Positions 20,884 to 33,608 of a DNA stretch of 64,000 nt are shown here, in pieces. Made by a program: the position numbers and the translations under genes. The stretch spans positions 666-64,665 of IMG/VR virus record IMGVR_UViG_3300009183_000095. The stretch is one strand, 5' to 3'. The DNA is from a virus (taxonomy: Duplodnaviria; Caudoviricetes). Below the pieces are notes generated by a model. It searched no databases, was not told the DNA's origin, and was given only the letters and a program-made list of their open reading frames with translations. Within the stretch, counting starts at the first letter, position 1. Every line of letters begins with the position of its first letter.

Positions 20884-20905
20884 AATATAGACCTTTCAGT
20901 TATTG

Positions 20906-21871
20906 TTACGCTTGTGCTAGCTTCTTTTCTTTTTTAAGTTGTCCTACATCTGCGGTAGCCGATGCACCAATCTGCGCTAGATCGATTAATGAACCACCAA
21001 ATACATAACTACCAACGTGCTGTAGTTTCATCCAAGGACAGAACCATACCTTACAACCCATCTTCTCTACATTGTAACAGAACATATAGTCCTCAGATAG
21101 ATAGCGCTTCGAAGCTGTTTTTTCAGCAGTTAGTAACAGCTTGGCTAGTTCTTGAACTCCTTCAGACTTACCTTCAGCTACATCGGTCATAATTTTATGA
21201 AGAGCTTCTGGGCTATAACCTCTATCGATGATACAGTCAAAGTAGGCCATAATCTGTCTAGAGCCATCAAAATGTTCTGTACGAACATGATCAGGTTTAT
21301 ATTTTTGATTAGGATACACTTGATCGTATTTTGCAAAAACAGACTTCTTAATCATCATAAAGCCTGTACCAATTTCCATCACCTGTACTGGCTCTCCAAG
21401 AGGAATCTCTCTTTGACCTGATGCAGGATTAAAGACATAATCACCAACGAAGTTTTCAAGCTTGTTAGGATCTTCATCTGCGAAACCCTTATCAACAGCG
21501 TGCTTGATCTTCTCCCATGAAATACATTTCTTAGGATAAGGTCCTCCAATAACATCGTAAGGGCTATCATCGGTCTGCATTGCCATCATAGCAATAACAT
21601 CTTGCGGATTAAATCCAATATCACTATCAATGAACATCAAGTGAGTGGCATCACTTCGAATAAATTCATCCACACAATAGTTACGTGCACGAGTAATTAA
21701 TGACTCATTAAACAAATAGTATAGTTGTAGAGGAATACCGTACTTGGCACAAAAAGCAGATAAGTCTGCTACCGAGCGAGTATAGAGACCAGCACATTGG
21801 CCGCCATACATCGGTGTGGCTACAAATAATTTTTTCTTCTGTAGCTCTTCAATATTAATTTCTAGTTGCAT
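20906..21871 (-). CDS. GT-A fold glycosyltransferase-like protein
   Basis: LFVATPMYGG, ESLITRARN, LMFIDSDIGF (DXD), GTGFMMI, YLSEDYMFC. Confidence 0.75.
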   Translation of the reverse strand: MQLEINIEELQKKKLFVATPMYGGQCAGLYTRSVADLSAFCAKYGIPLQLYYLFNESLITRARNYCVDEFIRSDATHLMFIDSDIGFNPQDVIAMMAMQTDDSPYDVIGGPYPKKCISWEKIKHAVDKGFADEDPNKLENFVGDYVFNPASGQREIPLGEPVQVMEIGTGFMMIKKSVFAKYDQVYPNQKYKPDHVRTEHFDGSRQIMAYFDCIIDRGYSPEALHKIMTDVAEGKSEGVQELAKLLLTAEKTASKRYLSEDYMFCYNVEKMGCKVWFCPWMKLQHVGSYVFGGSLIDLAQIGASATADVGQLKKEKKLAQA

Positions 21872-22370
21872 GCTCTACTCCATATTTTTTATCGTGTTGT
21901 TTATTAATGCCGTAGTCACCATCATAGGATGAAAGAGCTTCAGCGTCGAAAAGTAAAAATTGACCAATTCGTGTGCCCTTCTTGATACGAGCAGGACCAA
22001 TAGTCACATGTAATACACCTGCCATTACTCCGTGATAACCCGAATCATATAAGCCAGATGTAATGAATAATCCATTTCTATTTAAAGTAGAACGAGTAAT
22101 AACCCACCCTGCTTCATTCTCACCCACCTTAATAACGTTCTCCATAACAATTTCATAACTTCCTACTGGAAGGAAAAAATAGCCGGAAGTATCGGGAGTC
22201 ATCTCGAAAGACGTACCTCGATGTTTTTTGTGGTCGTTGGAAATTTCAAAAGGATCGGTATTGATAACAAAGACTTTATCTAGTCTAAGATCTACCGCAT
22301 TGGGCTGGCTGTCGCCATCTAATATATTAGTAAGCTCTGATCTTGAATTAAGACCAAGTATGTGTTTCAT
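21855..22370 (-). CDS. trimeric dCTP deaminase/dUTPase family protein
   Basis: QPNAVDLRL, RSTLNRNG, YDSGYHG, RIGQ; likely start MKHILG at 22370. Confidence 0.85.
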   Translation of the reverse strand: MKHILGLNSRSELTNILDGDSQPNAVDLRLDKVFVINTDPFEISNDHKKHRGTSFEMTPDTSGYFFLPVGSYEIVMENVIKVGENEAGWVITRSTLNRNGLFITSGLYDSGYHGVMAGVLHVTIGPARIKKGTRIGQFLLFDAEALSSYDGDYGINKQHDKKYGVEHATRN

Positions 22371-22374
22371 TAAG

Positions 22375-23004
22375 TCATTCTCCAAAATAATAAGGATTTT
22401 CAACTGTCTTAAAAGCATAGACAGGTTCCATAGTGTTGTCAAGGAACTTCATTCTAATTACATTATTAGGTTGAGTCGGTTGGCTACCATCGAACTTAGT
22501 CGATGAAATATTTAGCTCTTCGTCCACGAACATCGGGGATATTTCATTTCTAAATAAAAATAATTTTCTTTCTTTTTGAAGTAGACAGCTAAAGGTACCG
22601 TCCATTTCGTTAAGCGCGCTCCAGCCCCTACTAAGATCTACTAGCATGATAAGGGTATCCCAGTTAATATAAGCTGGATATTTTTCTGCCCTCAATTTCT
22701 CAATTACAGATGCTTTAATAATCCCGTTATGCCACAAATACCATCCGTTCAATATAGCTGGATGTATGGAGGTTGTATCTTTCGTATCAGAAGTAGGAGC
22801 TTGTACGTGCACAATTCCATAATAATACTCAGGTACATCGATTTTATCTAGATTAATGGGACCAAGTTGCTGAGATACAATATTTAGTGTACCTGTACCG
22901 TAGTTAAATAAAGAAAAAGAATGGGAGTGTTGTCCTCGATAAGAATTGAGTTCAACTAACTCCCTAAGTTTTTTAGTATTTTTAGACCCTACAATAGCAC
23001 ACAT
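22375..23004 (-). CDS. stand-alone class II (Ntn) glutamine amidotransferase
   Basis: N-terminal MC nucleophile (MCAIVG), YRG, HP, WHNGII. Confidence 0.8.
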   Translation of the reverse strand: MCAIVGSKNTKKLRELVELNSYRGQHSHSFSLFNYGTGTLNIVSQQLGPINLDKIDVPEYYYGIVHVQAPTSDTKDTTSIHPAILNGWYLWHNGIIKASVIEKLRAEKYPAYINWDTLIMLVDLSRGWSALNEMDGTFSCLLQKERKLFLFRNEISPMFVDEELNISSTKFDGSQPTQPNNVIRMKFLDNTMEPVYAFKTVENPYYFGE

Positions 23005-23507
23005 TAGTCTTTACCTTGAATAAATGCTTGAACGGCTATTATAGTAGCTTTTGGTTCAATATGCAAGTGCCCATTTCCTCCTTGCTGAATGAACTTATGA
23101 ATGACATCTACAGTATCATCAATCATGAATGATTGAGAGTTAGCGTATCCAGATTTAAACCGTCTTCCTGGAACTGTAACAACCGGATATTCAATATTGT
23201 TTTTCAAGCACCATTGCATCTTTTGTAATGATACCTCGGTATGTCTGTCAAAGCCTCCAGTAGAAGTAAGAATACTTTTTTGGATGCTTTTAGGTGTTTG
23301 ATGTAAGTAGTCAAGCAGCTCGTCCATACCGGGAAACTTATCTAGATTTTTAAATCCATCATCATCTACAAATTGATGCCAGTACTTAGTATAGAGACCC
23401 TTTTCTTTTTGGTCTCTTACCTCTTTAGGAGAGATGCCAAATCTCTCTTCATATGTCTTTTCAAAATTGGATAAGACACCATCCATATCAATATAAATTG
23501 TTCTCAT
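23004..23507 (-). CDS. HAD-family 5'(3')-deoxyribonucleotidase-like protein
   Basis: IYIDMDGVL, ILTS, K..W, MIDD. Confidence 0.85.
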   Translation of the reverse strand: MRTIYIDMDGVLSNFEKTYEERFGISPKEVRDQKEKGLYTKYWHQFVDDDGFKNLDKFPGMDELLDYLHQTPKSIQKSILTSTGGFDRHTEVSLQKMQWCLKNNIEYPVVTVPGRRFKSGYANSQSFMIDDTVDVIHKFIQQGGNGHLHIEPKATIIAVQAFIQGKD

Positions 23508-23516
23508 ATTTCACCA

Positions 23517-24281
23517 TTACGTAATAAGATAACTCCACGGGATTTGTTTAGCATAAGGAATGGGATCAACCATCTTTGCTTTAATAAAATTCTGAATACG
23601 CTCACTACACGAAGGACACTCTCCGCAACTCTCACCTACTGGTGTAGGATTATAGCAGGTCAATGTGAACTCAAGTTTAACATCACCAATCTCTTTAGCA
23701 ATCTCAATCTCTTGATACTTAGACAATAGACTAAAAGGAGCTTCTAGTTTTACTTTATGAGTCCTATTTTGATTAGCAACTGCGTTCATCGAGTCAACAA
23801 ACTTCTGAGTAGTATCCCAGTACCCATACTCATCATGTACTTGCAATCCAGTAAATACATGAGAGGCTTTATTAGCTTCAGCGAAAGAAAAAGCCAGAGA
23901 GTTAAGAATCATATTCCTAAACGGTACATAAGTCTTTGGCTGAGGATCTCCTAACACATCTTTAATAGTAGGCATCGCAACATTAGTACCACCAATATTA
24001 GCAGACATGTTTTTAGCAATTTCACCTAGAATATTAAGATCGAGAATCTTATGCTCAATGCCAAGATACTCACAAGTAGAAGCTGCCATCATCAACTCTC
24101 GTTTCTGCTTCTGCCCATAATCATATGATAGAGCAAACACTCGTTTATTACCATACTTCTTAGCCAAGATATAAGTCATAATGGTACTATCCATACCACC
24201 AGACAATACACTAACTACGTTTTCGTTTGTTTCCGGTAGACTTTGCAGAGCTTGTTGTAGGTTCATATTTTTCTCCATCAT
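23517..24281 (-). CDS. queC: 7-cyano-7-deazaguanine synthase QueC
   Basis: SGGMDST, YDYGQ, YVPFRNMI, TCY...CGECPSC. Confidence 0.95.
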   Translation of the reverse strand: MMEKNMNLQQALQSLPETNENVVSVLSGGMDSTIMTYILAKKYGNKRVFALSYDYGQKQKRELMMAASTCEYLGIEHKILDLNILGEIAKNMSANIGGTNVAMPTIKDVLGDPQPKTYVPFRNMILNSLAFSFAEANKASHVFTGLQVHDEYGYWDTTQKFVDSMNAVANQNRTHKVKLEAPFSLLSKYQEIEIAKEIGDVKLEFTLTCYNPTPVGESCGECPSCSERIQNFIKAKMVDPIPYAKQIPWSYLIT

Positions 24282-24549
24282 CCTTTAATTCTTGTCCGTA
24301 TAATTTAATTTCATATTCTGCTCTATTTACTTCTTTTATTTCGTAAGTATTGTTAAGTGACTCTTCAAACTTCTTCCACGAATTAAGATTGTACCCTCTA
24401 CATGGTATTTCGTAAGAAAACCCATCTGACATCTTAGCCGTCATTATAAAATACGCGTCCCGATCAACTTTAGGTTCTTGTTTTTTATTTGTTGTCGTCG
24501 GCGTGATTATAGGCTTTTTGTTTGAGGGCTTCAACATAGATTGCGGCAT
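24211..24549 (-). CDS. hypothetical protein (start uncertain)
   Basis: Fills the gap between queC and the upstream gene; the true start may be downstream of 24549. Confidence 0.5.
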   Translation of the reverse strand: MPQSMLKPSNKKPIITPTTTNKKQEPKVDRDAYFIMTAKMSDGFSYEIPCRGYNLNSWKKFEESLNNTYEIKEVNRAEYEIKLYGQELKDDGEKYEPTTSSAKSTGNKRKRS

Positions 24550-24700
24550 CCAATAACTCCTCCTGTAAGTGAATAAGCCATTGTAATGTAGATAAGTCGT
24601 CTCTTTCTGTTGTTACACCGTACTTCTTATACCCTGCTTCCATTCTAGTTTTGAGCATGTTGGATACGCGTTGTACATTGGGGTCGATCCATTTTTCCAT
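24485..24700 (-). CDS. small all-alpha NTP pyrophosphohydrolase-like protein (MazG superfamily)
   Basis: G.KKYG...DL...WL.HLQEELLDAAIY with an EExxD metal motif. Confidence 0.55.
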   Translation of the reverse strand: MEKWIDPNVQRVSNMLKTRMEAGYKKYGVTTERDDLSTLQWLIHLQEELLDAAIYVEALKQKAYNHADDNK

Positions 24701-25629
24701 TATTGTCTCGCAGTCTTAGTACACGGTATGTTATGAGATGCAATATTAGCAATACCATCAATTAAGAAAGTATTAGAAGCTCGTATAGGATTAATATCAA
24801 TACCACCACGGCGAGTATATAAACAAGTAACCAATAGTTCGGTAGGCTCTAACATATCATGTAATCGTTTATAGATGCATTCACAAATCTCTTCATGAAA
24901 ATGATTCTCTCGTCTCATAGACACAATATACTGCAATAGAGACTCAGGGGTAACTGTTTTCTTACCTCTAATATGAATATAAACATCGCCCCAGTCCGGC
25001 TGATTAGTTACTCTACAGTTCGATCGCAACGAAGAAGATCTCCACTTATCAGCATAGCGCCCGGAGCTGTCTACTACTTGTAGTATCTCTGGGCTCTCGT
25101 TATAGTGAGAAAAGTCAATCTCTTCTACATTAACAAAATCTTCTAGGGAAACAAAATCACCATTCAATGGTCTTTGAGTATCAAAGTCACCGGTAAATAT
25201 ACTACAATGTACTTTTCCTCCAACTGCTTCACTCATATGTCTTTCAATGGTCTCCTGAACGTTATACAGACCATCCCAGGTCCACATCGTCTTTGCCATA
25301 TTATAAGAGTTTAAATAAAGCTTAACAGACTTTGACTCAACAATATTAGGAGTATCAGAGCTATAAGCGAACTTAAGCCAGCCAGAGACAGGAAAGCCGT
25401 TAACCATAAGAGTGGAAAACTCATAAGCGTTCCATGCATCTGCTCCAACAAACGGAAGAGATTCCTCTTCAATATCATACTGCGTACGATTAAGTTTGCG
25501 CGGTACAGCAACCAAAAGACTTGCATCGACCTCATCAGGTGTGACATATGGCTTAACAATAGACCCATCTCCTGCCTTTCCTAAATGAACAGAAACTAGT
25601 TTATTTAATTCTTCTTGATTATCACTCAT
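24700..25629 (-). CDS. queF: NADPH-dependent preQ0 reductase QueF (bimodular type II)
   Basis: QueF motif VESKSVKLYLNS, catalytic LRSNCRVTNQPDWG, FHEEICE, YTRRGGIDINP. Confidence 0.95.
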   Translation of the reverse strand: MSDNQEELNKLVSVHLGKAGDGSIVKPYVTPDEVDASLLVAVPRKLNRTQYDIEEESLPFVGADAWNAYEFSTLMVNGFPVSGWLKFAYSSDTPNIVESKSVKLYLNSYNMAKTMWTWDGLYNVQETIERHMSEAVGGKVHCSIFTGDFDTQRPLNGDFVSLEDFVNVEEIDFSHYNESPEILQVVDSSGRYADKWRSSSLRSNCRVTNQPDWGDVYIHIRGKKTVTPESLLQYIVSMRRENHFHEEICECIYKRLHDMLEPTELLVTCLYTRRGGIDINPIRASNTFLIDGIANIASHNIPCTKTARQ

Positions 25630-26162
25630 TAGCGTCCTTCCAAAAAATTCATAATTGTTGTAACTCTATCTCTAACAGTACCTTTAACTCGTTGCATAGG
25701 TAATTTTCTTTTTTCTATCTGATGTTCAAATAGATCAGCAATCTTATCTCTAAACTTCGTATCAGTACTTCTCGTTCCATCATCCACAATATCAAATTCA
25801 GGTTCAATATAAAATACATGATCGTACATCGGCCATACTTTATCAAATACTTGATTAACATACTCTAACGTTGGCTGATTAATATGAGCAAGATTATACA
25901 GGTAGTAAGAATAAACTACCCCATCTAATACAGTACGATCAGTAAGCATATCGTTATGAAGAAAGACATTAACAATATGCTCATTCATAATTAAACGCTG
26001 AGTATTATCATTACCTTGCTCATTGATCGGTAACCCATACCCCTTCACCCTGCGTGTTACTTCATCGCAGATAGTATATTTTTCAAATAATTTTTCCGAG
26101 CGCAAAGCATTAAGTAGAGTAGTTTTACCTACCGACTGCGCCCCACTAATTCCAATTCTCAT
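25629..26162 (-). CDS. NadR/AAA_28-like P-loop nucleotide kinase
   Basis: GAQSVGKTTL, DRTVLDG, DDGTR. Confidence 0.8.
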   Translation of the reverse strand: MRIGISGAQSVGKTTLLNALRSEKLFEKYTICDEVTRRVKGYGLPINEQGNDNTQRLIMNEHIVNVFLHNDMLTDRTVLDGVVYSYYLYNLAHINQPTLEYVNQVFDKVWPMYDHVFYIEPEFDIVDDGTRSTDTKFRDKIADLFEHQIEKRKLPMQRVKGTVRDRVTTIMNFLEGR

Positions 26163-26709
26163 TTAATAGTAACCTCGTCTTTATAAAATCAACCCATAGT
26201 TGTATGGATATAAATTTTAGTTTAGTACATAGTGAGTCAAGCGTCTCACCCTCTTCAATGCTGCATGTTTGAATACGTAGAATCTGCCCTGCGTCTACTT
26301 CAGGTACTACACTATGAATTACAGTTCCAGTGGAGGGAAGTTTTAGATCTAAAGCTTTCTGTTGAGGATCTTTACCTTTAAGAGATGGGTAAGTTACTAT
26401 GTCGCCTGGATGTCCGTTGAATATATTGAACTCATTACAAATATGTTCCGGTAATATTCTAAGATATCCGTGAAGAGTAATAATCCAAGAAGCTTCTATT
26501 TCGTACCTAACAAATGACATTATATCATCATGCTTTAACTTTACAACATTGTAAGTTTGCATATCTGGATGCCATTTACTCTCATCCATATTATTTGTAA
26601 GAACTATAGACGGTTGGTATCCTAGGTTATCACTTATACCTACAATCTCCGATCCAGTCTGACTGAATAAAGCTACCCAACCGGCCTTACGTATAACATG
26701 GTTACCCAT
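26146..26709 (-). CDS. PurN-like formyltransferase (candidate DpdN-type preQ1 formyltransferase)
   Basis: LFSQTGS, HGYLRILP, NGHPG, GTVIH.V..EVDAG (catalytic N/H/D retained); likely start 26709. Confidence 0.8.
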   Translation of the reverse strand: MGNHVIRKAGWVALFSQTGSEIVGISDNLGYQPSIVLTNNMDESKWHPDMQTYNVVKLKHDDIMSFVRYEIEASWIITLHGYLRILPEHICNEFNIFNGHPGDIVTYPSLKGKDPQQKALDLKLPSTGTVIHSVVPEVDAGQILRIQTCSIEEGETLDSLCTKLKFISIQLWVDFIKTRLLLNENWN

Positions 26710-27490
26710 TAACAATCGCTCTAAAGCACTCGACGTTATAGGTAATTCTGTTGAGAGTGTCATTATCAACCTCGCTATTAATCATAGTATAAAGTTTCTG
26801 AGAAGGTTTATCCTCTAGACCCTTATCACCATTATATCTTATTCCTTTTAATCCTGCAACTACTGGATTTGACGTATCAATAGAATCAATCCAAGTATAG
26901 CCTCTATATGATTCAAACTCCTGAGGTAGTCCACATCCAAGTAGGTGATGTGGCTTGTCTTGATTAATGATATCATTAGCTAACATATAGTGAATGAGTG
27001 CATCTCGCCCGTACATGTAATGATGAAACTTAGTAGGTAGTTTACCATTGACATCTTCATTTACAAAGAAAGAATAATCAAACGAAATAGCTATCTTATC
27101 AACATAAGATTCAATCTCTTGATAGCACCAAATAATTTCGTCTAAAGTTTTGCCTTGCACCACACCAATACATTGACCCGGTAGATCATGTAGCCAATTC
27201 TTAACGTTAGCAACTGTCTTTTCCGCTCCCTCTAACACATCGGGAATAATAAAAGCAGTAGGATGTAGATATTCGATCCACTTACAGTACTTGTTTTCAT
27301 CAAATGCTTCGCCGAGTTCAAAGATAGAGTTATCTAAAATAATTTCACGACCTTTATTCTTTGCCTTTACAAACAGATCTCGATATTCTTCACTCTCTTC
27401 AAACAAGTGAACTAGGGCATAATCATAATCAGTAACTTCCTGTATGCGAGGAAAAATAGAGATGGGGGCTTCGTGGGCAATCTTAATCAT
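26702..27490 (-). CDS. divergent TGT-fold transglycosylase (DpdA-like)
   Basis: IILDNS, IPDV, GVVQG, HHLLG and SIDTS occur in TGT/DpdA motif order; no C-terminal Zn site; embedded in the que cluster. Confidence 0.7.
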   Translation of the reverse strand: MIKIAHEAPISIFPRIQEVTDYDYALVHLFEESEEYRDLFVKAKNKGREIILDNSIFELGEAFDENKYCKWIEYLHPTAFIIPDVLEGAEKTVANVKNWLHDLPGQCIGVVQGKTLDEIIWCYQEIESYVDKIAISFDYSFFVNEDVNGKLPTKFHHYMYGRDALIHYMLANDIINQDKPHHLLGCGLPQEFESYRGYTWIDSIDTSNPVVAGLKGIRYNGDKGLEDKPSQKLYTMINSEVDNDTLNRITYNVECFRAIVNG

Positions 27491-27881
27491 TAAAATTATA
27501 CTCCTGTTGTTTTCTTACACGTTCACGTTCACGTTTTTGATAGTACTTTGTACCGAGAAATTCCATCTTTTGAATAATCTCGTTTACCTGCTCTTTGGAT
27601 AGCATAACAATTTCAGTTACTCCACCAATTTTTTCTTCAATCCAAAGATTCTTAGGATAGAATGTTTTGAAGGTCTCTTCAACCCCCTTCATCTCATCCA
27701 ATGGGCCAGCAACAGTTTTCATGATTTTAATTTCCCACTTGTCATACTGCTCAGGCTCATACTTGAACCTCTCCGCAGCATCCCAATTGGATGTATGACC
27801 AAACTTATAGAAGTCTATCTGTTTGGTTTCCTTGTTCGTGAACCTTGCAAGATACATCTTGCCTATCTTCTCCGTCATCAT
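27483..27881 (-). CDS. GIY-YIG/T5orf172-like hypothetical protein
   Basis: MYLARF...FYKFGHT...ERF...E pattern; start after GAGG SD. Confidence 0.5.
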   Translation of the reverse strand: MMTEKIGKMYLARFTNKETKQIDFYKFGHTSNWDAAERFKYEPEQYDKWEIKIMKTVAGPLDEMKGVEETFKTFYPKNLWIEEKIGGVTEIVMLSKEQVNEIIQKMEFLGTKYYQKRERERVRKQQEYNFND

Positions 27882-28122
27882 AACTACCTCTCTCACGTTG
27901 TTCAAATTTCTTTTCTTGTATTGTTTTCTCGCCCCAAACACGTCTAGGGTTTGAACATAATAAACATTTAGGATTACCGCAATTCATTGCATGATGTTTA
28001 GCAAACTTATGAGGTTCTTTTACAGGTACTCCAAATTCTTTTGCAATCTTTACCTGTCTTTTTATTTGCACTTCCTCTTGATGGAGACGTTTGCTGTGTT
28101 TTTGTTTATCTTCTTCATGCAT
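27805..28122 (-). CDS. conserved hypothetical protein with Cys/His motif
   Basis: KHHAMNCGNPKCLLCSNPRR; AGGAG SD. Confidence 0.65.
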   Translation of the reverse strand: MHEEDKQKHSKRLHQEEVQIKRQVKIAKEFGVPVKEPHKFAKHHAMNCGNPKCLLCSNPRRVWGEKTIQEKKFEQRERGSYDDGEDRQDVSCKVHEQGNQTDRLL

Positions 28123-28131
28123 ATTTTCTCC

Positions 28132-28419
28132 TTAAAATGTCATTCTAATTAGCCCTATAGTATCAATAGTGGTTAACAGGATGTAGTTAGCCAACATGCC
28201 AAATGATTTCCGAGTATAACTAGCCCAAGCGTACATAGCGCAACCACTAATCCAAACAGGATAAAGAGCCAGTAGGGGAGGATTAGGCACGGTAAGCGCC
28301 ATTGTAATCGAACACCCAATACTAATAGCCCAAGCGAGCAACTCAACAACAAAACGAAGCTTGTTAGAAGTCCAGTCATCTTTTATCCATTCAAGTGTAG
28401 GTCTGAATATATCCAGCAT
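28132..28419 (-). CDS. small three-TM membrane protein
   Basis: Three hydrophobic segments; TAATG coupling. Confidence 0.7.
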   Translation of the reverse strand: MLDIFRPTLEWIKDDWTSNKLRFVVELLAWAISIGCSITMALTVPNPPLLALYPVWISGCAMYAWASYTRKSFGMLANYILLTTIDTIGLIRMTF

Positions 28420-28700
28420 TAGACTTTCTTACCTTCCCCTGCAAGGAAGTAATTGGTTACTTTAGTCATCATAGTGGTTTTGGACTGTACAGCTTGAATT
28501 ATATTGATAAACTTCTGTTTGGTTTCTTTCTTACCTGTAGAAGCTTCAATAGCTTGAATGCAGAGGTTACGGAAATCCTCCACATGCATGACGGTATAGT
28601 TATCGAAGATATTTTTTATCATGTCTTCGCCTATTCCGTCATGTTTGACGCGAGCCTTAGAGCTGGTCTGAGTAGTTGTAATCACGGTAGTTCCTTTCAT
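28419..28700 (-). CDS. hypothetical protein
   Basis: Directly downstream of a sigma70 promoter. Confidence 0.65.
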   Translation of the reverse strand: MKGTTVITTTQTSSKARVKHDGIGEDMIKNIFDNYTVMHVEDFRNLCIQAIEASTGKKETKQKFINIIQAVQSKTTMMTKVTNYFLAGEGKKV

Positions 28701-28711
28701 AATGATGATTC

Positions 28712-28740
28712 ATTATAGTATACTACCGAAATTAAAGCAA
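28712..28740 (-). promoter_or_regulatory. sigma70-type early promoter
   Basis: TTGCTTTAATT...TATAAT, 17-bp spacer; same family as the promoters at 2134 and 2210. Confidence 0.8.
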
Positions 28741-28748
28741 CAGATTTT

Positions 28749-29459
28749 TTATAGGCCTTTTCCATACGATTGCTGTAGCGCTATGTTATCGAAAAATTCT
28801 TTCTTTACTGACGCGTCATGAAATTGACCGTGTAGTACTGTCGTTTGAGTAAGTGAACTATGAGCCATAATTCCTCGGTTCTCACAACACCCGTGAGTAG
28901 CTTGGACATATACACCCACATCCTTACTATCGGTAGATGCAATTATTTCTCTAGCAATGTCGTTGCAGAGCTCTTCCTGTAACGTTCCACGGCGAGCACA
29001 CCATTGAGCGATTCTAGTATATTTAGATAAGCCAATAAGTTTATTAGCGGCGATAATCCCGATGTATGCCACACCAGATACAGGCTGGTGATGATGACTG
29101 CACATAGAGCGCAATTCGCTACGGACAACTAGCATACCTTCGTAACGGTCTTGCGAGTCATTAGGAAAAGCGGTTGCTGTAGGTCTGTGGTCATATCGCC
29201 CTGCCATTATTTCATTAAAGTACATTTTAGCAAGGCGCTTGGCTGTACCTCTACTATTAGGATCGTTTTCACGGTCAATTAATAATACATCCAAAACTTT
29301 TTCAAACGCTTCTGTAGCTTCTGTAATTAGTGTCTGTTTAGTAATATCATCACCAACATACTCACTAATATTATCTCCAGCCCAGAAGCGCTTACCATCA
29401 GATTTCATTCGTTTGCGAATAACTTGTGATAGATTTTTTTCCATAATACCCTCAGTCAA
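28749..29459 (-). CDS. folE: GTP cyclohydrolase I
   Basis: SMCSHH, IGLSKYTRI, ARRGTLQEEL, HGCCENRG. Confidence 0.96.
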   Translation of the reverse strand: MTEGIMEKNLSQVIRKRMKSDGKRFWAGDNISEYVGDDITKQTLITEATEAFEKVLDVLLIDRENDPNSRGTAKRLAKMYFNEIMAGRYDHRPTATAFPNDSQDRYEGMLVVRSELRSMCSHHHQPVSGVAYIGIIAANKLIGLSKYTRIAQWCARRGTLQEELCNDIAREIIASTDSKDVGVYVQATHGCCENRGIMAHSSLTQTTVLHGQFHDASVKKEFFDNIALQQSYGKGL

Positions 29460-30000
29460 TTAGATTCTCTTTCCACTCACGGTGACCTTCTCTATATGCC
29501 ATATTGCTAATAGTCTCTCTTACCTCTACTCTATAGCACCAAAGGCGTTCTGCTTCACTAGGTCCCCACATATCTGGAATATATACTCCATTAACGTATC
29601 GGTAGAGCATATCAGAAAGACCTTCACAACCAAGCTTTGGAAGAATAGTTAACTTAGCCATCTTTTTATCTTGCAAAAGTTTAAACGTTTCTAACTCTGG
29701 GTCATCTTCAGCTACTAATAAAGTATGATCAAACTGATCTTCTAAAATTCCTTTTAGTTCTTTTAGACCGCCATAATCAGCAGCCCAGTTGCGTACATCA
29801 AGATCATCAGTACCAAAAAAGAATCTCATAGAAAAACTATAACCATGAATTAAGTTACAATGGGAGTCTGCTCTCCATTGACGATATGCACATGGAAATG
29901 CATTGTGATATTCTTTAGTACTCGTATACTTGTATTGTACTGGGTGACGTAAATACTGTCTATGGTCGCTTACTACTGGTGTTCCAAAATCATCTGACAT
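29452..30000 (-). CDS. queD: QueD / PTPS-family synthase (atypical His ligands)
   Basis: HCNLIHGYS, DYGGLK, FDHTLL, VEVRET; position in the cluster. Confidence 0.85.
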   Translation of the reverse strand: MSDDFGTPVVSDHRQYLRHPVQYKYTSTKEYHNAFPCAYRQWRADSHCNLIHGYSFSMRFFFGTDDLDVRNWAADYGGLKELKGILEDQFDHTLLVAEDDPELETFKLLQDKKMAKLTILPKLGCEGLSDMLYRYVNGVYIPDMWGPSEAERLWCYRVEVRETISNMAYREGHREWKENLID

Positions 30001-30024
30001 ACTGTTCTCCTGTGTTTATTTTCA

Positions 30025-30438
30025 TTATACCTTTTCCCACCAAAAGTCTATCCAATTGGTTATGATTTGTCTATCAATCATCCATCCCCAATAATTCGGC
30101 TTAAATGATTGACCGGAGTTATAAACGAGGCTTGCAGTGTCTACATGACCATGAATAGCTATAATTTCCTGCATCGTCTGACCTGTATCAACTATATCAT
30201 CAACGAGCAATATTTTATCGTTTAACTTAAATCCTAAATCAATTACAGTGGGTTCATTCTTTGACCAATGTAACGCTTGAAAGGGGATGTTCATTTTATG
30301 GCTTAATGCCACAGCAGGTATTACACCCCCTCTTGCAATACCTACAATACAATCATATTTTTTACCTGATTTTTCTACACTCTCAGCTATTCGATTTACA
30401 TCACGTGTAAATGCTTCAAAGTTATAAAATAAGTTCAT
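30025..30438 (-). CDS. type I purine phosphoribosyltransferase (Gpt-like)
   Basis: IARGG..PA, PRPP motif ILLVDDIVDTGQT, C-terminal WIDFWWE. Confidence 0.9.
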   Translation of the reverse strand: MNLFYNFEAFTRDVNRIAESVEKSGKKYDCIVGIARGGVIPAVALSHKMNIPFQALHWSKNEPTVIDLGFKLNDKILLVDDIVDTGQTMQEIIAIHGHVDTASLVYNSGQSFKPNYWGWMIDRQIITNWIDFWWEKV

Positions 30439-31292
30439 TAAGTACCCCATTCATTTTTAAAGAGAGGCACTTGTAGTCTATCAGAATATCTGAAACCTTT
30501 TTTCATTGCAAGATCTGCAACAGCTCTGTTGTTCATATGGTATACAGACTCTACACCACCAACAGGCATCAAATAAACCGGTCCATTAAAGCCATAGTCA
30601 CGATATGCCTCAACCGCGCGACTTGCTTCATCTGCATCTTCTTGTGTTGCTACTACAAACTTCAGATAGGTATAGCCAATGCCACTATAAGCGGATACTA
30701 CCTTTGGTTGAATTGCTTCTTCCCATGACTCACCTGATACAGATAGTTTAGGTGATACGGAGAAGGTAAGGCTGCTATATTCTCTATCGTTAACGAAAGT
30801 CCATTCGTTAAGATATTCTTTAAGAGAATCAGAGAGAGGTTGAGTACCGTTAGTTTCAAACGTTAACTCTTTTAGACCCCTCATACATGGCTGTAGTAGA
30901 AGGTCAGGGTATGCACGTTGCCAACCCAGTAGAGGTTCACCGCCGGTGATTACGAGATGTTCGTCTTTCCATTCCTTGTGCGGTAGAAGATCAACAATTG
31001 AAGTGGCAAGACTATCAACAGGTACAACAGGGCTAAGATGCTTAAAGCGCACATCCCAGCTAGCATAACTATCACACCCGGTAGATACCAAAGGGAGTGC
31101 TTTATACTCTGTGTAATTTTCGGGGTTGATTTTAAGGTGCTCATCACTTTTTTGTCCTTTCGGCATACCAAAACCTGAGCATGTGAAGTTACATCCAAAT
31201 GTTCTTAGGAACACGGACGGGACGCCCATATAGCGACCTTCACCTTGAATGGAGTAGAATAACTCCGCGACTTTAAGTTTCTGCAATCTCAT
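30438..31292 (-). CDS. queE: 7-carboxy-7-deazaguanine synthase QueE (radical SAM)
   Basis: ELFYSIQGEG, FLRTFGCNFTC...GCDS, VITGGEP, ETNGT, SPKL. Confidence 0.93.
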   Translation of the reverse strand: MRLQKLKVAELFYSIQGEGRYMGVPSVFLRTFGCNFTCSGFGMPKGQKSDEHLKINPENYTEYKALPLVSTGCDSYASWDVRFKHLSPVVPVDSLATSIVDLLPHKEWKDEHLVITGGEPLLGWQRAYPDLLLQPCMRGLKELTFETNGTQPLSDSLKEYLNEWTFVNDREYSSLTFSVSPKLSVSGESWEEAIQPKVVSAYSGIGYTYLKFVVATQEDADEASRAVEAYRDYGFNGPVYLMPVGGVESVYHMNNRAVADLAMKKGFRYSDRLQVPLFKNEWGT

Positions 31293-31896
31293 CTCCTAGT
31301 TTACGTGGAAGGGCACGTGATAAGTTATGTAGGCTACCTACAGCTCTTTTCACTTGTCTGTCTCGAATTTTTTTCTGTCTTAACGCTCTATCTAAAAGTA
31401 GTTTATGAGCTCTTGTAGTATAGTCTATTCCATTTAAATGATCCAGCTCATGTAGGATACACCTGGCTGTCATACCAATAAACTTCTCCGTTACAGTCTC
31501 TCCTGTGTACTTGGTATAACGTACTTTGATAATAGCTGGGCGTTTAATTTTAACAAAGAACCCTGGGCGAGATAAGCACCCCTCCTCTAGGGAATTCTCT
31601 TCCATGGATGTATCAATTAATTTAGGATTAAACAATGCAAGAGGGGCTTGTGAATGTAATACAAACACACTATAAGGAATGCCTACTTGATTGGCTGCTA
31701 ATCCTAGCCCGTTATACTTTGACATAGTAGCAATTAAATTATTTGCTAACTCGGCAGGGTTCATAGGAGGGTTTTTAAAATCAAATCTCTCCGTAGGCTT
31801 ATGCAGTATAGGATTAGTACAAGGTAGTACATCGTAAATAGTTGGCTCCGGAGGCTTGGGAGCATCTACTATTTCATAATTCATTGTTTCAGTCAT
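31273..31896 (-). CDS. def: peptide deformylase
   Basis: GLGLAANQVG, EGCLS, HELDHLNG. Confidence 0.95.
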   Translation of the reverse strand: MTETMNYEIVDAPKPPEPTIYDVLPCTNPILHKPTERFDFKNPPMNPAELANNLIATMSKYNGLGLAANQVGIPYSVFVLHSQAPLALFNPKLIDTSMEENSLEEGCLSRPGFFVKIKRPAIIKVRYTKYTGETVTEKFIGMTARCILHELDHLNGIDYTTRAHKLLLDRALRQKKIRDRQVKRAVGSLHNLSRALPRKLGDEIAET

Positions 31897-33608
31897 TGTG
31901 ATATCCTCGAAAAGTTCTTATGTTTCTCAAACTTAATTACACTGTCAAACTTATCAAACAGCTGATCACCTTTGTGACTAATAATAAAAATATTAGTATC
32001 ACCGGTAATAGTGCTGATGATCTTTAAAAACTCGTCTGTGCCAGCGTTATCCAAAGACGAGTCAAACACTTCATCCATTATGAGAAGATTAGTACTAGCA
32101 CTATTGCGAAGCTTAGCCACAGCTCTCCAGGTAAATAGTAGAGCCAAGTCAATTCGCATCTTCTCACCCTCTGAAAAACTCTCGTAACTAAATTCATCTC
32201 TAAACCTCGACTTTATCTTCTCTTCAAAATTTTCATTCAATTCAAAGTTAACAAAGAAGTCCATGGCCGCCAGGTACTTGTTGATCAACTTATTCATTAC
32301 TGGAATATATTGTTTAATAATTTTAGTTTTAATGCCAGAATCTTTTAATAATAACTGTGCTACATCCAACACTCCTTTATCAGTTACAAGATCTTCTTTG
32401 AGTTTAATCATATCACCTAACTCAATTTTTAACTGTTTTAATTCATCAGAAGTGTCTTCATTAGATGTATTACTACCTTGTAGCTTAACTATTTCATTTT
32501 TAATATCTGTTATGAATTGGTTCCAGGTCGTAACCTGTACATTTAAGTTAGATATTTGTTGATTACAAGTGGATATGTCATTTAATATATTATTGATAGT
32601 CTCTAGACGGGTATTAAGAGCACAATACTCTTCCTCAAGTTTGGTTTTTCCTTCATTGATTTCAGTAACTTGGGTAGTGTCTCGTTCAATAATCTCTTGT
32701 TTATGCGAATGTTCAATCCCCTGGCGGCATGTTGGACAATCGTTATGTTCTTGAAAGAACGAAAGTTCTTTTTCAAGCTTGCTAAGTCGTTGATCAATCT
32801 GGGCGCCCAAGGTATCCAACTTTTTGATTTTTTGCCGTACTGAATCTTTATCAGAAATAGAATGATTGGCAATTTCAAGTAATTTTGAAATTCTATTGAT
32901 GTCACTGTTCGCTGTTTGAATTTGACCATTGTATTCCTCGATCTTTTCTTCTTTCTGCTTTATTATTTCATCAGTATTGGCTTTGAGTACATTAATATGT
33001 TTCTTTAATATAACAATCTTCTCACCATTAGATTTAATATTATAGTCAGTATCGGTAATAGAATTTCTATTCTCTGTTACTTTTTCTTTAAGTAATGTAT
33101 TCATTGTAGAGAAAATCTGAATATCTAATAGGTCCTCAATCACCTCTCTTCTATGCATTGCTGACAACTGCATGAACGGAACAAACGATGCACTACCTAA
33201 TACTACAATTTGACTAAATGACTTATGATTGAGACGGAGAATATTTCTCTCGAACATCTCTTGATACTCTTTTGACTCAGCATCTTGGTTGAGCATATTA
33301 CCGTCTTGGTAAATTTCAAACAAAGTCGGCTTGATGCCTCTCTTAATAGTAAAGTTTCTTTTACCAATAGAAAAATCCAGATGAACTTCTAAGCCCTTCT
33401 GGTTAATGGCATTTACTAGTTGAGGTTTATTAATCTTACGAAACGGCTTACCGTATAAAGCAAACGATAAAGCATCTAAGATGGTAGACTTACCCGCACC
33501 ATTCTCACCTACTATTAACGTTGACTTAGTCTTTGTGAAATCAATCTCTGTGAAAGTATTTCCAGTTGATAGAAAGTTCTTCCACTTAATATTTTTGAAA
33601 TAAATCAT
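31893..33608 (-). CDS. gp46: recombination ATPase, Rad50/SbcC-like (gp46)
   Basis: GENGAGKS, CPTC zinc hook, FSEGE signature, MDEVFD. Confidence 0.96.
   Translation of the reverse strand: MIYFKNIKWKNFLSTGNTFTEIDFTKTKSTLIVGENGAGKSTILDALSFALYGKPFRKINKPQLVNAINQKGLEVHLDFSIGKRNFTIKRGIKPTLFEIYQDGNMLNQDAESKEYQEMFERNILRLNHKSFSQIVVLGSASFVPFMQLSAMHRREVIEDLLDIQIFSTMNTLLKEKVTENRNSITDTDYNIKSNGEKIVILKKHINVLKANTDEIIKQKEEKIEEYNGQIQTANSDINRISKLLEIANHSISDKDSVRQKIKKLDTLGAQIDQRLSKLEKELSFFQEHNDCPTCRQGIEHSHKQEIIERDTTQVTEINEGKTKLEEEYCALNTRLETINNILNDISTCNQQISNLNVQVTTWNQFITDIKNEIVKLQGSNTSNEDTSDELKQLKIELGDMIKLKEDLVTDKGVLDVAQLLLKDSGIKTKIIKQYIPVMNKLINKYLAAMDFFVNFELNENFEEKIKSRFRDEFSYESFSEGEKMRIDLALLFTWRAVAKLRNSASTNLLIMDEVFDSSLDNAGTDEFLKIISTITGDTNIFIISHKGDQLFDKFDSVIKFEKHKNFSRISQ

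What the first reader, a model, noticed from the sequence alone, without database searches (positions are those of the whole stretch)
23004..30438. Nucleotide-pool enzymes suggest a pre-replicative route to replace dG
Seen: a Gpt-like PRTase between queE and queD, a P-loop kinase coupled to queF, an EExxD pyrophosphatase-like ORF and a HAD 5'-nucleotidase beside queC. Established: phages that fully substitute a base (hmC in T4, Z-genome phages) make the modified dNTP and destroy the canonical one. Inference: the PRTase or TGT-like enzyme makes a deazaguanine nucleotide, the kinase phosphorylates it, the pyrophosphatase and HAD deplete dGTP/dGMP, and gp43 incorporates the analogue. This predicts near-complete rather than motif-specific substitution.
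Basis: inference. Interest (0 to 1): 0.8.

Follow-up and report, generated by a model that had tools for sequence, protein, structure and literature searches.

The report
Phage formyl-preQ1 guanine-replacement island, DpdA3 type
An uncultured T4-like phage carries the known gene set that replaces every guanine in phage DNA with a formylated 7-deazaguanine, and the kinase and nucleotide-hydrolase genes that travel with its base-swapping enzyme suggest, without proving, that the swap is made on free nucleotides before the DNA is copied.

Summary
All four ORFs exist as described. Two hold as named: a small 6-oxopurine-type PRTase and an AAA_28 P-loop kinase with a deoxynucleoside-kinase/TMPK-like fold. 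The HAD is a generic large-phage 5'(3')-deoxyribonucleotidase-like gene. The 71-aa "EExxD" ORF matched no pyrophosphatase family in any test.

Near-complete substitution is therefore supported by homology.

Pre-replicative or not stays open; the published view is post-replicative. My evidence leans pre-replicative. Of 49 non-redundant DpdA3 loci, 46 carry a kinase-type gene within 3 kb, from three unrelated families (AAA_28, T4 gp1-like DNMK, DUF3310 as in the T7 gp1.7 dGMP/dTMP kinase). A kinase-DpdA3 fusion exists. Of 23 loci, 22 carry a dUTPase/DCD-like or MazG-like gene. Of 18 DpdA1 control loci, 1 has any of these.

I read DpdA3 as the base-swapper on dGMP and the PRTase as a guanine recycler, not the nucleotide maker. 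PRTase and HAD are dispensable accessories.

This scan reached the same DpdA3-kinase reading before on other DNA (117 notes).

The parts
30438..31292 (-). QueE-like radical-SAM 7-carboxy-7-deazaguanine synthase
   Evidence: NCBIfam QueE models at about 6e-12, below the curated cut-offs. Conserved at this position in relatives.
30025..30450 (-). Small 6-oxopurine-type phosphoribosyltransferase. Read here as a guanine recycler (inferred); an accessory gene.
   Evidence: PF00156 5.4e-15. PDB 1vdm purine PRTase 5e-10. Present in 38 of 66 clusters that have QueE and FolE. 0 of 18 DpdA1 loci carry it.
29452..30000 (-). QueD-like 6-carboxytetrahydropterin synthase
   Evidence: TIGR03367 7e-7, below the cut-off. 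35% identical to the QueD region of phage immuto.
28749..29459 (-). FolE (GTP cyclohydrolase I)
   Evidence: tblastn gives 40% identity to the annotated GTP cyclohydrolase of immuto_2-6A and 66-85% to relatives. No family scan was run on it.
27483..28700 (-). Four small ORFs (152, 105, 95 and 93 aa; one membrane-like) of unknown function between FolE and DpdA3
   Evidence: ORFs. The 152- and 93-aa ORFs have no Pfam or PHROG hit of note. They are conserved only in the closest relatives.
26702..27490 (-). DpdA3-type TGT-fold 7-deazaguanine transglycosylase. Proposed to swap guanine for the deazaguanine base; the substrate level (dGMP or DNA) is unresolved.
   Evidence: 53% identical to the annotated DpdA of immuto and 37% to the CP220 homologue. 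AF2 pLDDT 97. Foldseek top hits are TGTs at E 5e-8. Invariant D53, D84, H182, G185, D205, P209 in 61 sequences.
26146..26769 (-). DpdN-like PurN-family formyltransferase (preQ1 to formyl-preQ1)
   Evidence: PF00551 8.5e-9. 49% identical to the DpdN region of immuto. Fused to DpdA3 in P0169, P0191 and P0273.
25629..26162 (-). AAA_28 P-loop kinase with a dNK/TMPK-like fold. Proposed kinase for the modified dNMP (inferred).
   Evidence: PF13521 2.2e-15. Fold. Lies between DpdN and QueF in 54 of 76 loci. Sits 42 nt after DpdA3 in CP220. Fused to DpdA3 in P0275.
24700..25629 (-). Bimodular QueF (preQ0 to preQ1)
   Evidence: PF14819 1e-28 and PF14489 6e-20.
24485..24700 (-). Not shown to be a pyrophosphatase.
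   Evidence: Lies between QueF and QueC in 25 of 58 loci. 190 phage records hold homologues.
23517..24281 (-). QueC (7-cyano-7-deazaguanine synthase)
   Evidence: TIGR00364 2e-51, 174.4 bits, above the 150.3 cut-off.
23004..23507 (-). HAD 5'(3')-deoxyribonucleotidase-like protein. Accessory and generic to large phages.
   Evidence: phrog_2643 1e-27. NT5C sub-threshold. Present in 15 of 39 loci, 4 of 23 and 32 phage records without DpdA3.
22375..23004 (-). N-terminal-Cys (MCAIVGS) amidotransferase-like protein beside QueC. Probable glutaminase partner (inferred).
   Evidence: GATase_7 is weak at 0.0068. phrog_12378 3.6e-41. Conserved next to QueC.
21855..22370 (-). DCD/dUTPase-fold NTP pyrophosphatase-like protein (start taken at Met25 of the listed ORF). 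Candidate dGTP-removing enzyme, or an ordinary dUTPase.
   Evidence: PF22769 3e-13 and PF00692 5e-6. PDB dUTPase 9w59 1.5e-9. Present in 26 of 26 fully covered que islands and 0 of 3 islands without que genes.

Best explanation
The four genes sit in a DpdA3/DpdN-type 7-deazaguanine island. The island lies in the variable gp46-gp45 slot of an uncultured T4-like phage. FolE, QueD, QueE, QueC (with a glutaminase-like partner) and QueF make the free base preQ1 from GTP. DpdN adds the formyl group, and the virion DNA is predicted to carry formyl-preQ1 in place of essentially all G. Up to here the reading rests on homology to a phage whose DNA was measured. The next steps are inferred, not shown. 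I propose that DpdA3 does not work on finished DNA. Instead it exchanges guanine for the deazaguanine base on a free deoxynucleotide, most likely dGMP. That dGMP would come from host-DNA breakdown or from dGTP hydrolysis by the neighbouring dUTPase/DCD-fold enzyme. The adjacent P-loop kinase would then rephosphorylate the modified dNMP, host NDP kinase would make the dNTP, and the family-B polymerase gp43 would incorporate it. This parallels the T4 triad of dCTPase, dCMP hydroxymethylase and dNMP kinase. The PRTase converts the released guanine to GMP. This pulls the exchange forward and feeds GTP back to FolE. The HAD nucleotidase and the 71-aa protein are non-essential accessories.
For: Identity of the system: synteny and 34-53% identity with immuto_2-6A, whose DNA lacks dG and holds fdPreQ1 (Cui 2023, section 18). 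The DpdA3 model has the TGT fold. Kinase linkage: of 76 IMG/VR loci with DpdN and QueF, 54 have the AAA_28 kinase between them. The other 22 have a DUF3310 protein at that spot. DUF3310 is the conserved domain of T7 gp1.7 (PF11753 4.5e-23; hhalign 94%). gp1.7 phosphorylates dTMP and dGMP (passage in PMC11897194). Of 16 QueC-less sister islands with a divergent DpdA3 (hhalign 98.1%), 13 have a T4 gp1-like DNMK (PF21448 3e-20) overlapping its end. Non-redundant count: 46 of 49 loci with at least 3 kb on both sides have a kinase-type gene within 3 kb, against 1 of 18 DpdA1 loci. In CP220 an HD+AAA_33 protein, DpdA3 and the AAA_28 kinase are consecutive genes. In phiST an AAA_18 P-loop gene abuts DpdA3. 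Fusions: AAA_28 kinase-DpdA3 (P0275, hhalign 99.8%) and DpdA3-DUF3310 (P0161). NTP-hydrolase linkage: 22 of 23 loci with at least 8 kb on both sides have a DCD-like or PRA-PH-like gene. MazG occurs in phiST, HD in CP220 and PRA-PH in immuto. The DCD-like gene is in 26 of 26 que islands and 0 of 3 non-que islands. Literature: a modified-dGTP route was 'proposed for Campylobacter phages' (Hutinet 2019 discussion). [quoted passage not shown]
Against: No experiment or computation here shows the substrate of DpdA3. Every characterised member of the TGT/DpdA superfamily acts on a polymer. [quoted passage not shown] Three of the 49 loci lack any of the three kinase types (L094, L171, L184). The DUF3310 proteins are only 84-122 aa and cover just the C-terminal third of gp1.7, so kinase activity is unproven. 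The kinase families were chosen after looking at the loci. The loci fall into only about four phage lineages, so the counts are not independent events. The kinases and PRTase can also be explained as guanine-to-GTP recycling. The DCD-like gene may be an ordinary dUTPase, and only 3 non-que islands were available as contrast. Structural proxies did not discriminate. DpdA3 is acidic (family median pI 5.24, n=250), but so is the validated DNA enzyme DpdA1 (pI 5.15-6.49, n=18), and both lack a Cys cluster. The window's record is a 36%-complete fragment, so gene absences cannot be read for the genome.
Confidence: 0.55

Rival explanations
1. The published view: DpdA3 is a highly efficient DNA transglycosylase that replaces G in already replicated phage DNA. 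The PRTase, the kinase and NDP kinase only recycle the large amount of released guanine back to GTP for FolE. The dUTPase/MazG/HD genes are ordinary house-cleaning enzymes.
For: Family precedent: DpdA1, DpdA2 and bacterial DpdA act on DNA, and Cui 2023 states this conclusion. The profile of the family aligns its HLLG...DTSNP segment to the solved DNA-guanine transglycosylase 7ui4, though only at E 0.16. The PRTase is of the guanine-salvage type. Neither pI nor Zn-site absence separates DpdA3 from DpdA1.
Against: Recycling to GTP needs a ribonucleotide GMP kinase. Yet two of the interchangeable kinase families are deoxynucleotide kinases (T4 gp1-like DNMK; DUF3310 of the T7 gp1.7 dGMP/dTMP kinase), and the third has a deoxynucleoside-kinase-like fold. 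The kinase is kept in 10 clusters that have QueE and FolE but lack the PRTase (L014-L016, L029, L058, L073, L074, L084, L087, L105). The kinase-DpdA3 fusion is hard to explain by recycling. DpdA1 loci, where guanine is also released, lack all these genes in 17 of 18 cases. DpdA3 gave no activity in the authors' E. coli DNA assay.
Confidence: 0.3
2. One reading: the PRTase couples the deazaguanine base to PRPP to give a ribonucleotide, the kinase makes the diphosphate, ribonucleotide reductase makes the deoxy form, and gp43 incorporates it. The HAD and the 71-aa protein deplete dGMP and dGTP.
For: PRTase homologues in the phage collection are concentrated in complete-replacement phages: 9 of 13 records are immuto or phiST-group. 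The PRTase is absent from 18 DpdA1 loci and 3 non-que islands.
Against: The PRTase is absent from 28 of 66 clusters and gave no tblastn hit in the 14 Campylobacter DpdA3 phage records. These include CP220, whose genome is reported as completely modified (Cui 2023 discussion). The route leaves the universal DpdA3 without a role. The PRTase keeps the D-x-D-[TS]-G string, whose second Asp contacts purine N7 in HGPRT/XGPRT by my recollection; a 7-deaza base has no N7. The 71-aa ORF is no recognisable pyrophosphatase. The HAD is generic and often absent. No RNR lies in the island, though the rest of the genome is unseen.
Confidence: 0.07
3. Nucleoside-level variant: the HAD (or a host nucleotidase) makes deoxyguanosine, DpdA3 acts as a deoxyribosyl-transferase on the nucleoside, and the kinase is a true deoxynucleoside kinase.
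For: The top structural matches of the kinase are deoxynucleoside kinases. A HAD deoxyribonucleotidase-like gene is in this island. The ADG nucleoside was seen in infected C. jejuni (Cui 2023, section 17). Hutinet 2019 raised 'undetected 2'-deoxyribosyltransferases'.
Against: The HAD is present in only 4 of 23 well-covered loci. The replacing kinases DNMK and gp1.7-like are nucleotide kinases, not nucleoside kinases. Foldseek does not separate the dNK, TMPK and RNK folds well.
Confidence: 0.08

Closest known systems
[quoted passage not shown]
   Same: The same enzyme set and local order: PRTase, FolE, DpdA3, DpdN, AAA_28 kinase, QueF. Identities are 34-53%. The predicted product is the same, and complete dG replacement was measured in that phage.
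   Different: The host phage is a T4-like myovirus with a family-B polymerase, not a family-A polymerase phage. The PRA-PH/MazG-like gene upstream of DpdA3 in immuto is missing here. This island instead has a DCD/dUTPase-like gene, a glutaminase-like gene, a HAD and the 71-aa ORF. No chemistry has been measured for this phage.
dADG system of Campylobacter phage CP220 and dDG system of Cellulophaga phage phiST (DpdA3 type)
   Same: A DpdA3 homologue (37% and 24% identity) directly flanked by P-loop kinase-type genes and an NTP-hydrolase-type gene. Complete replacement is reported for both (Cui 2023 discussion).
   Different: Those phages stop at CDG-derived bases and have no QueF or DpdN. CP220 shows no PRTase hit. 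Their hydrolases are HD or MazG, not DCD-like.
DpdA1 systems (Enterobacteria phage 9g and relatives)
   Same: The same FolE/QueD/QueE/QueC precursor pathway and a compact TGT-fold DpdA without a Cys cluster.
   Different: Replacement is partial: about 27% in 9g per the Hutinet 2019 introduction and 0.1-30% for DpdA1 per Cui 2023. Of 18 loci, 17 have none of the kinase, PRTase or NTP-PPase-type genes. DpdA1 is accepted as acting on DNA.
Pre-replicative whole-base replacement pathways: T4 hmC (gp56 dCTPase, gp42 dCMP hydroxymethylase, gp1 dNMP kinase) and Z-genome phages (MazZ, DatZ, PurZ). Recalled, except that PMC8342488 appeared in a search listing.
   Same: It works like them under my reading: an NTP hydrolase removes the canonical dNTP and yields the dNMP, an enzyme modifies the dNMP, and a kinase restores the triphosphate. 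A T4 gp1-family DNMK replaces the AAA_28 kinase in sister islands.
   Different: The modifying enzyme would be a TGT-fold base exchanger rather than a thymidylate-synthase or PurA relative. No member of that superfamily is known to use a mononucleotide. Nothing is demonstrated biochemically.

Membership tests
DpdA3-type phage 7-deazaguanine DNA modification system (Cui 2023) | A DpdA3-subfamily transglycosylase gene | tested here: met
   53% identity over 100% of the length to the annotated DpdA of immuto_2-6A, and 37% to CP220. phrog_19058 1.4e-45. TGT fold at pLDDT 97.
DpdA3-type phage 7-deazaguanine DNA modification system (Cui 2023) | [quoted passage not shown] | tested here: met
   QueC is above the TIGR00364 cut-off. 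QueF is above both Pfam cut-offs. QueD and QueE are hit but below the NCBIfam cut-offs. FolE is supported only by tblastn similarity to annotated FolE.
DpdA3-type phage 7-deazaguanine DNA modification system (Cui 2023) | DpdN formyltransferase co-encoded with the pathway (fdPreQ1 branch) | tested here: met
   PF00551 8.5e-9, above the cut-off. 49% identity to the region encoding immuto DpdN. DpdN is present in 83 of 92 related loci.
DpdA3-type phage 7-deazaguanine DNA modification system (Cui 2023) | Virion DNA in which dG is replaced by the modified nucleoside | not testable with these tools
   The phage is uncultured. Only assembled contigs of public runs are available.
TGT/DpdA transglycosylase superfamily | (beta/alpha)8 TGT barrel with the catalytic Asp after the HLLG strand | tested here: met
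   Foldseek against TGTs gives E 5e-8 and TMq 0.59-0.68. D205 in 'DTSNP', H182 and G185 are invariant in 61 sequences. The segment aligns to 'IDSTTP' of DpdA 7ui4, but only at E 0.16.
TGT/DpdA transglycosylase superfamily | C-terminal zinc-binding subdomain (Cys cluster) of tRNA TGTs | tested here: not met
   The protein is 262 aa. No Cys is conserved except C122 (55 of 61) and C186 (43 of 61). The feature is also absent from DpdA1, so it does not separate DNA-acting members.
6-oxopurine phosphoribosyltransferase (Gpt/HGPRT-like) | Type I PRTase domain with the PRPP loop, scoring as an XGPRT/HGPRT equivalog | tested here: inconclusive
   PF00156 is above the cut-off. All NCBIfam equivalogs are far below their cut-offs, the best being XGPRT at 40.3 vs 138 bits. 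The closest solved relatives are purine PRTases. The D-x-D-[TS]-G string is kept in 11 of 11 relatives listed. Substrate was not tested.
MazG/HisE all-alpha NTP pyrophosphohydrolases (the 71-aa ORF) | Match to a MazG, PRA-PH or dUTPase_2 profile, or a four-helix fold with paired EExxE/ExxD metal motifs | tested here: not met
   0 Pfam hits at E<=5. The profile against PDB gives nothing below E 0.4. hhalign against PRA-PH-like neighbours of DpdA3 gives 0.09%. Only one EExxD string is present.
HAD 5'(3')-deoxyribonucleotidase (NT5C) | HAD motif I (DxDG) and a match to the NT5C profile | tested here: inconclusive
   The DMDGV string is at residues 7-11. phrog_2643 scores 1e-27. Pfam NT5C scores 14.3 bits against a cut-off of 24.8.
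P-loop nucleoside/nucleotide kinases (dNK / TMPK / NadR-RNK fold group) | Walker A motif, the fold, and the DR[ST/Y]-type substrate motif | tested here: met
   GAQSVGKT and the invariant D75-R76-T77. AAA_28 2.2e-15. Foldseek dCK, dAK, TMPK and RNK at E 3e-7 to 6e-6. The phosphate acceptor is unknown.

The most novel reading that the evidence does not exclude
DpdA3 is the first TGT-superfamily enzyme that exchanges the base on a free deoxynucleotide (dGMP) rather than in a polymer. Together with an interchangeable NTP pyrophosphatase (dUTPase-fold, MazG/PRA-PH or HD) and an interchangeable dNMP kinase (AAA_28, T4 gp1-like, T7 gp1.7-like or AAA_18), it forms a purine counterpart of the T4 dCTPase/hydroxymethylase/kinase triad. 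On this reading, all complete 7-deazaguanine genomes are made before replication, contrary to the published conclusion. The family is very common in environmental phages: 4487 homologues at E<=0.001.
Probability: 0.5. Interest if true: 0.8.

Novelty: new member of a known kind. Interest (0 to 1): 0.55.

Why it matters
Complete replacement of a canonical base is rare. Each known case (hmC, Z, dU, hmU) has taught how phages rewire dNTP pools and escape nucleases. For 7-deazaguanines the literature I could read says post-replicative, but the enzyme responsible for 100% replacement (DpdA3) has never been shown to work. A kinase and an NTP hydrolase are wired to DpdA3 across several unrelated phage lineages, with non-homologous enzymes filling the same slot and occasional fusions. 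This turns the question into a simple test: DpdA3 with dGMP and preQ1, with or without the kinase. It also names the helper genes that a heterologous reconstitution probably needs. If the reading is right, it offers an enzymatic route to 7-substituted 7-deaza-dGTPs and explains why the DpdA3 phages alone reach full substitution. For this window itself the result is ordinary: another member of a large environmental family.

Tried and rejected
Acidity of DpdA3 as a sign that it does not bind DNA: rejected. The window protein has pI 4.87 and the family median is 5.24 (n=250). The DNA-acting DpdA1 group is also acidic, at 5.15-6.49 (18 sequences).

Absence of a zinc subdomain as a discriminator: rejected, because DpdA1 lacks a conserved Cys cluster too.

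The 71-aa ORF as MazG-like, DUF3310-like or anything known: no support. One depositor's label 'ntP-ppase' on a homologue is only an annotation.

Bacillus phage BSTP annotations ('NadR', 'polynucleotide kinase') over the DpdA3-like gene suggested a fusion. The gene is a plain 262-aa DpdA3-like ORF. Its upstream neighbour is a P-loop protein with only sub-threshold dNK similarity (E 0.013), and I do not count it.

Whole-record search of five kinase-less (DUF3310-type) records for DNMK and AAA_28: no DNMK, and only sub-threshold P-loop matches. The records are 6-49% complete, so this says little.

The window's own record is a 64,665-nt fragment (36% complete). A DNMK search found nothing, and other absences cannot be read.

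Megablast of the island against the phage collection: no match.

Sequencing runs: 5 runs were listed, all kept as assembled contigs, with word shares of 0.75, 0.23, 0.18, 0.13 and 0.01. I did not lay them, because contigs cannot show base-calling errors at modified G. I draw no habitat or abundance conclusion.

Complex prediction of DpdA3 with the kinase returned 'no answer' (score 0.00, controls not run). It counts neither for nor against binding.

Literature: searches found no paper in the held library that links a kinase, PRTase or NTP hydrolase to DpdA3. The main texts of Cui 2023 and Hutinet 2019 contain 0 occurrences of 'kinase' and 'phosphoribosyl'. Crippen 2019 and Tran 2012 are not held, and I cite them only through others' text.

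Full report
WHAT IS THERE. The window is part of a T4-like myovirus. It encodes a family-B DNA polymerase (14256-16799), a gp41-type helicase, UvsX, UvsW, a gp47-like phosphoesterase and the gp23 capsid protein. The ORFs at 19269-20204, 20230-20883 and 31893-33608 correspond to gp44, gp45 and gp46, named through their homologue clusters in related loci (Pfam on representatives). The record that holds the window is a 64,665-nt viral contig estimated at 36% complete.

Between gp46 and gp45, all on the minus strand, the genes run in this order:
- peptide deformylase
- QueE
- a PRTase
- QueD
- FolE
- four small unknown ORFs
- a 262-aa TGT-like protein
- a PurN-family formyltransferase
- an AAA_28 P-loop kinase
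- a bimodular QueF
- a 71-aa ORF
- QueC
- a HAD protein
- an N-terminal-Cys amidotransferase-like protein
- a DCD/dUTPase-fold protein
- a glycosyltransferase-like protein

THE FOUR ORFS OF THE FINDING. All four exist at the stated places.
- The PRTase passes Pfam PF00156 (5.4e-15). It is closest to small archaeal purine PRTases (1vdm, 5e-10; Sulfolobus GpT-2), but it is far below every NCBIfam equivalog cut-off.
- The kinase passes AAA_28. Its AF2 model (pLDDT 88.6) is closest to deoxynucleoside kinases, then thymidylate kinases, the NadR ribosylnicotinamide-kinase domain and YorR. Its stop overlaps the QueF start by one base.
- The HAD matches the PHROG family annotated as 5'-3' deoxyribonucleotidase (1e-27), but Pfam NT5C only below threshold.
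- The 71-aa ORF is conserved. It matched nothing: no Pfam hit at E<=5, no PDB profile hit, only viral hypothetical neighbours in the Atlas, and hhalign probabilities of 0.5% against DUF3310 and 0.09% against true PRA-PH/MazG-like proteins. The pyrophosphatase reading rests on one EExxD string.

WHAT THE ISLAND IS. The 262-aa protein is a DpdA3. [quoted passage not shown] Its model (pLDDT 97) has the TGT barrel.

The immuto genome has the same block: QueD, QueE, PRTase, FolE, a 'hydrolase', DpdA3, formyltransferase, 'thymidylate kinase', QueF. Identities to the window proteins are 34-53%. I read the abstract and sections 17-19 and 21 of Cui et al. 2023. For that phage LC-MS found dA, dC, dT and formyl-preQ1 but no dG. 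The formyltransferase was named DpdN, and DpdA3 was called the subfamily that 'allows for complete replacement'.

The expected base here is formyl-preQ1.

The family is large. It has 4487 homologues at E<=0.001 in the 90% clusters, 1605 representatives at 50% and at least 541 places in IMG/VR.

PRE- OR POST-REPLICATIVE. Cui 2023 concludes that all 7-deazaguanine modifications are post-replicative because every such phage has a DpdA. It also reports that DpdA3 could not be tested successfully in E. coli, and that the ADG nucleoside was seen in the cytoplasm of infected Campylobacter. Hutinet 2019 (passages only) had mentioned a modified-dGTP route 'as proposed for Campylobacter phages'. Neither main text mentions a kinase or a PRTase. 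Supplements were closed.

I therefore asked what travels with DpdA3. From 92 IMG/VR loci I clustered all ORFs.
- Of 76 loci holding both DpdN and QueF, 54 have the AAA_28 kinase between them.
- The other 22 have an 84-122-aa DUF3310 protein at exactly that place (PF11753 2.6e-12).
- DUF3310 is the conserved domain of T7 gp1.7 (4.5e-23; hhalign 94%).
- RefSeq annotates gp1.7 as a nucleotide kinase. A held paper describes it as phosphorylating dTMP and dGMP (passage).

Loci anchored on gp46 instead gave 29 fully covered islands.
- 10 are of the window type. The kinase is in 10 of 10, PRTase in 7, HAD in 6, the 71-aa ORF in 10 and the DCD-like gene in 10.
- 16 are of a QueC-less type. Their divergent DpdA3 (hhalign 98.1%) is followed, with a 4-nt overlap, by a T4 gp1-family DNMK in 13 of 16 (PF21448 3e-20). 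PRTase is in 9 of 16 and the DCD-like gene in 16 of 16.
- 3 have no que genes. They have none of these genes and carry a thymidylate-synthase-like gene instead. One of them (L186) also carries a dCMP deaminase, an alpha-glucosyltransferase and a C5-methylase.

In named phages the same pattern holds.
- CP220 has HD+AAA_33, DpdA3 and the AAA_28 kinase as consecutive genes.
- phiST has MazG, DpdL, an AAA_18 P-loop gene and DpdA3.
- The immuto 'hydrolase' is PRA-PH-like.

A non-redundant recount with HMMs gave the following.
- 46 of 49 loci with at least 3 kb on both sides carry a kinase-type gene within 3 kb of DpdA3: AAA_28 in 33, DUF3310 in 9, DNMK in 5, and one locus has two.
- 22 of 23 loci with at least 8 kb on both sides carry a DCD-like or PRA-PH-like gene.
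- 18 DpdA1 loci (phage 9g and relatives) served as control: 1 had a DUF3310 gene and none had any of the other families.

Fused proteins exist:
- AAA_28 kinase-DpdA3 (P0275; one cluster on a 2.9-kb contig)
- DpdA3-DUF3310 (P0161)
- DpdA3-DpdN
- DpdA3-QueF

READING. Non-homologous kinases fill the same slot beside DpdA3. At least two of them belong to deoxynucleotide-kinase families. A non-homologous NTP hydrolase also accompanies DpdA3 in each lineage. This is most simply explained if the product of DpdA3 needs phosphorylating, which means DpdA3 exchanges the base on dGMP. That gives a purine analogue of the T4 dCTPase/hydroxymethylase/kinase logic.

On this reading the PRTase has its family's ordinary job: it turns the released guanine into GMP. 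That pulls a reversible exchange to completion and returns purine to FolE. This fits its being common but dispensable. It is in 38 of 66 clusters and was not found in the Campylobacter phages. It also keeps the D-x-D-[TS]-G string. The role of that Asp at purine N7 is my recollection, not a test.

The HAD is a generic large-phage gene. It has 32 phage records, none of them a DpdA3 phage, and it is in 4 of 23 loci.

WEAKNESSES.
- Nothing here shows a substrate.
- The loci come from about four lineages, and the kinase families were picked after inspection.
- The short DUF3310 proteins cover only the C-terminal third of gp1.7.
- Three loci have no kinase type.
- The recycling explanation (guanine to GMP to GDP to GTP) covers the PRTase and a kinase, though less well a deoxynucleotide kinase or the fusion.
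- The DCD-like gene may be a plain dUTPase.
- Charge and zinc-site comparisons did not separate DpdA3 from DpdA1.

STANDING. The island is a new member of a known system. The idea of a pre-replicative route is in print as a proposal for Campylobacter phages. I found the gene-linkage argument for it in no paper I could search. It has, however, been reached repeatedly by this scan on other genomes: 117 notes in at least 97 genomes, including the PRTase-as-recycler reading and a kinase-DpdA3 fusion. I obtained most of my counts and my first DpdA3 fusions before reading those notes. The kinase-DpdA3 fusion itself I looked for only afterwards.

Noticed in passing
L186:12258-18484, L161, L188 (relatives of window 20900-31900): The slot between gp46/deformylase and the glycosyltransferase-like gene/gp45 appears to be a swap site for DNA-modification cassettes. 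Three relatives lack all que genes. There they carry a thymidylate-synthase-like gene. L186 also has a dCMP deaminase, a T4-type DNA alpha-glucosyltransferase, an epimerase and a C5-cytosine methylase.
   Followed up: partly
L153:5426-11009 and 15 similar loci (L136, L137, L144, L149, L151, L152, L155, L156, L164, L166, L171, L173-L175, L184): A QueC-, QueF- and DpdN-less sister island: QueE, (PRTase), QueD, FolE, an HTH protein, two unknown ORFs (181 and 149 aa), a divergent 291-aa DpdA3-like protein, a T4 gp1-like DNMK and a DCD-like protein. It probably makes a CDG-derived base, and its product is unknown.
   Followed up: partly
L073:6176-6769 and cluster c28 in 19 loci of the polA (immuto-like) lineage: A non-specific DNA/RNA endonuclease (PF01223 3e-19) sits inside the que cluster between QueE and the PRTase. 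It could supply dNMPs from host DNA, or be safe only for G-free DNA.
   Followed up: no
P0271, P0272 (metagenomic proteins): DpdA3 fused to a complete bimodular QueF. This implies direct hand-over of the free base preQ1 to the exchanger.
   Followed up: partly
window 24485-24700; L032:6830-7348 (Pseudomonas phage PaMx25 gp64): The 71-aa domain has homologues in 190 phage records. These include Queuovirinae siphoviruses and 67 Flavobacterium phage records, sometimes inside a longer (172-aa) protein. No function is known.
   Followed up: partly
window 22375-23004: A stand-alone N-terminal-Cys amidotransferase-like protein (MCAIVGS..., phrog_12378) sits next to QueC in 32 related loci. It is probably the glutaminase that is fused to QueC in other phages.
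   Followed up: no
window 31273-31896: A peptide-deformylase-like ORF lies between gp46 and QueE. It is kept at that place in relatives with and without que genes. The name comes from its sequence motifs as I read them, and no family scan was run.
   Followed up: no
window 20906-21871: A glycosyltransferase-like protein (phrog_1574 3e-64; only weak Pfam GT hits) lies next to gp45. It is present both in que islands and in the three non-que islands, so it is backbone rather than part of the deazaguanine module.
   Followed up: no
phage collection, 89 Streptomyces phage records (e.g. NC_048723 67583-68119): More distant AAA_28 kinase homologues (26-30% identity) are annotated as thymidylate kinase and often sit next to a methyltransferase. 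I did not check whether they accompany another DNA modification.
   Followed up: no
L049:3793-4197: The single DpdA1-type control locus with a DUF3310-like gene (sub-threshold in Pfam at 22 vs 24 bits) has it between FolE and a divergent DpdA (40% identical to 9g). It is possibly an intermediate type.
   Followed up: no
ON615601.1 71323-71775 (Synechococcus phage BUCT-ZZ01): The best PRTase homologue among named phages (33% identity) lies beside a 'queuosine biosynthesis protein'. That phage gave no DpdA3 tblastn hit and also has a HAD homologue.
   Followed up: no
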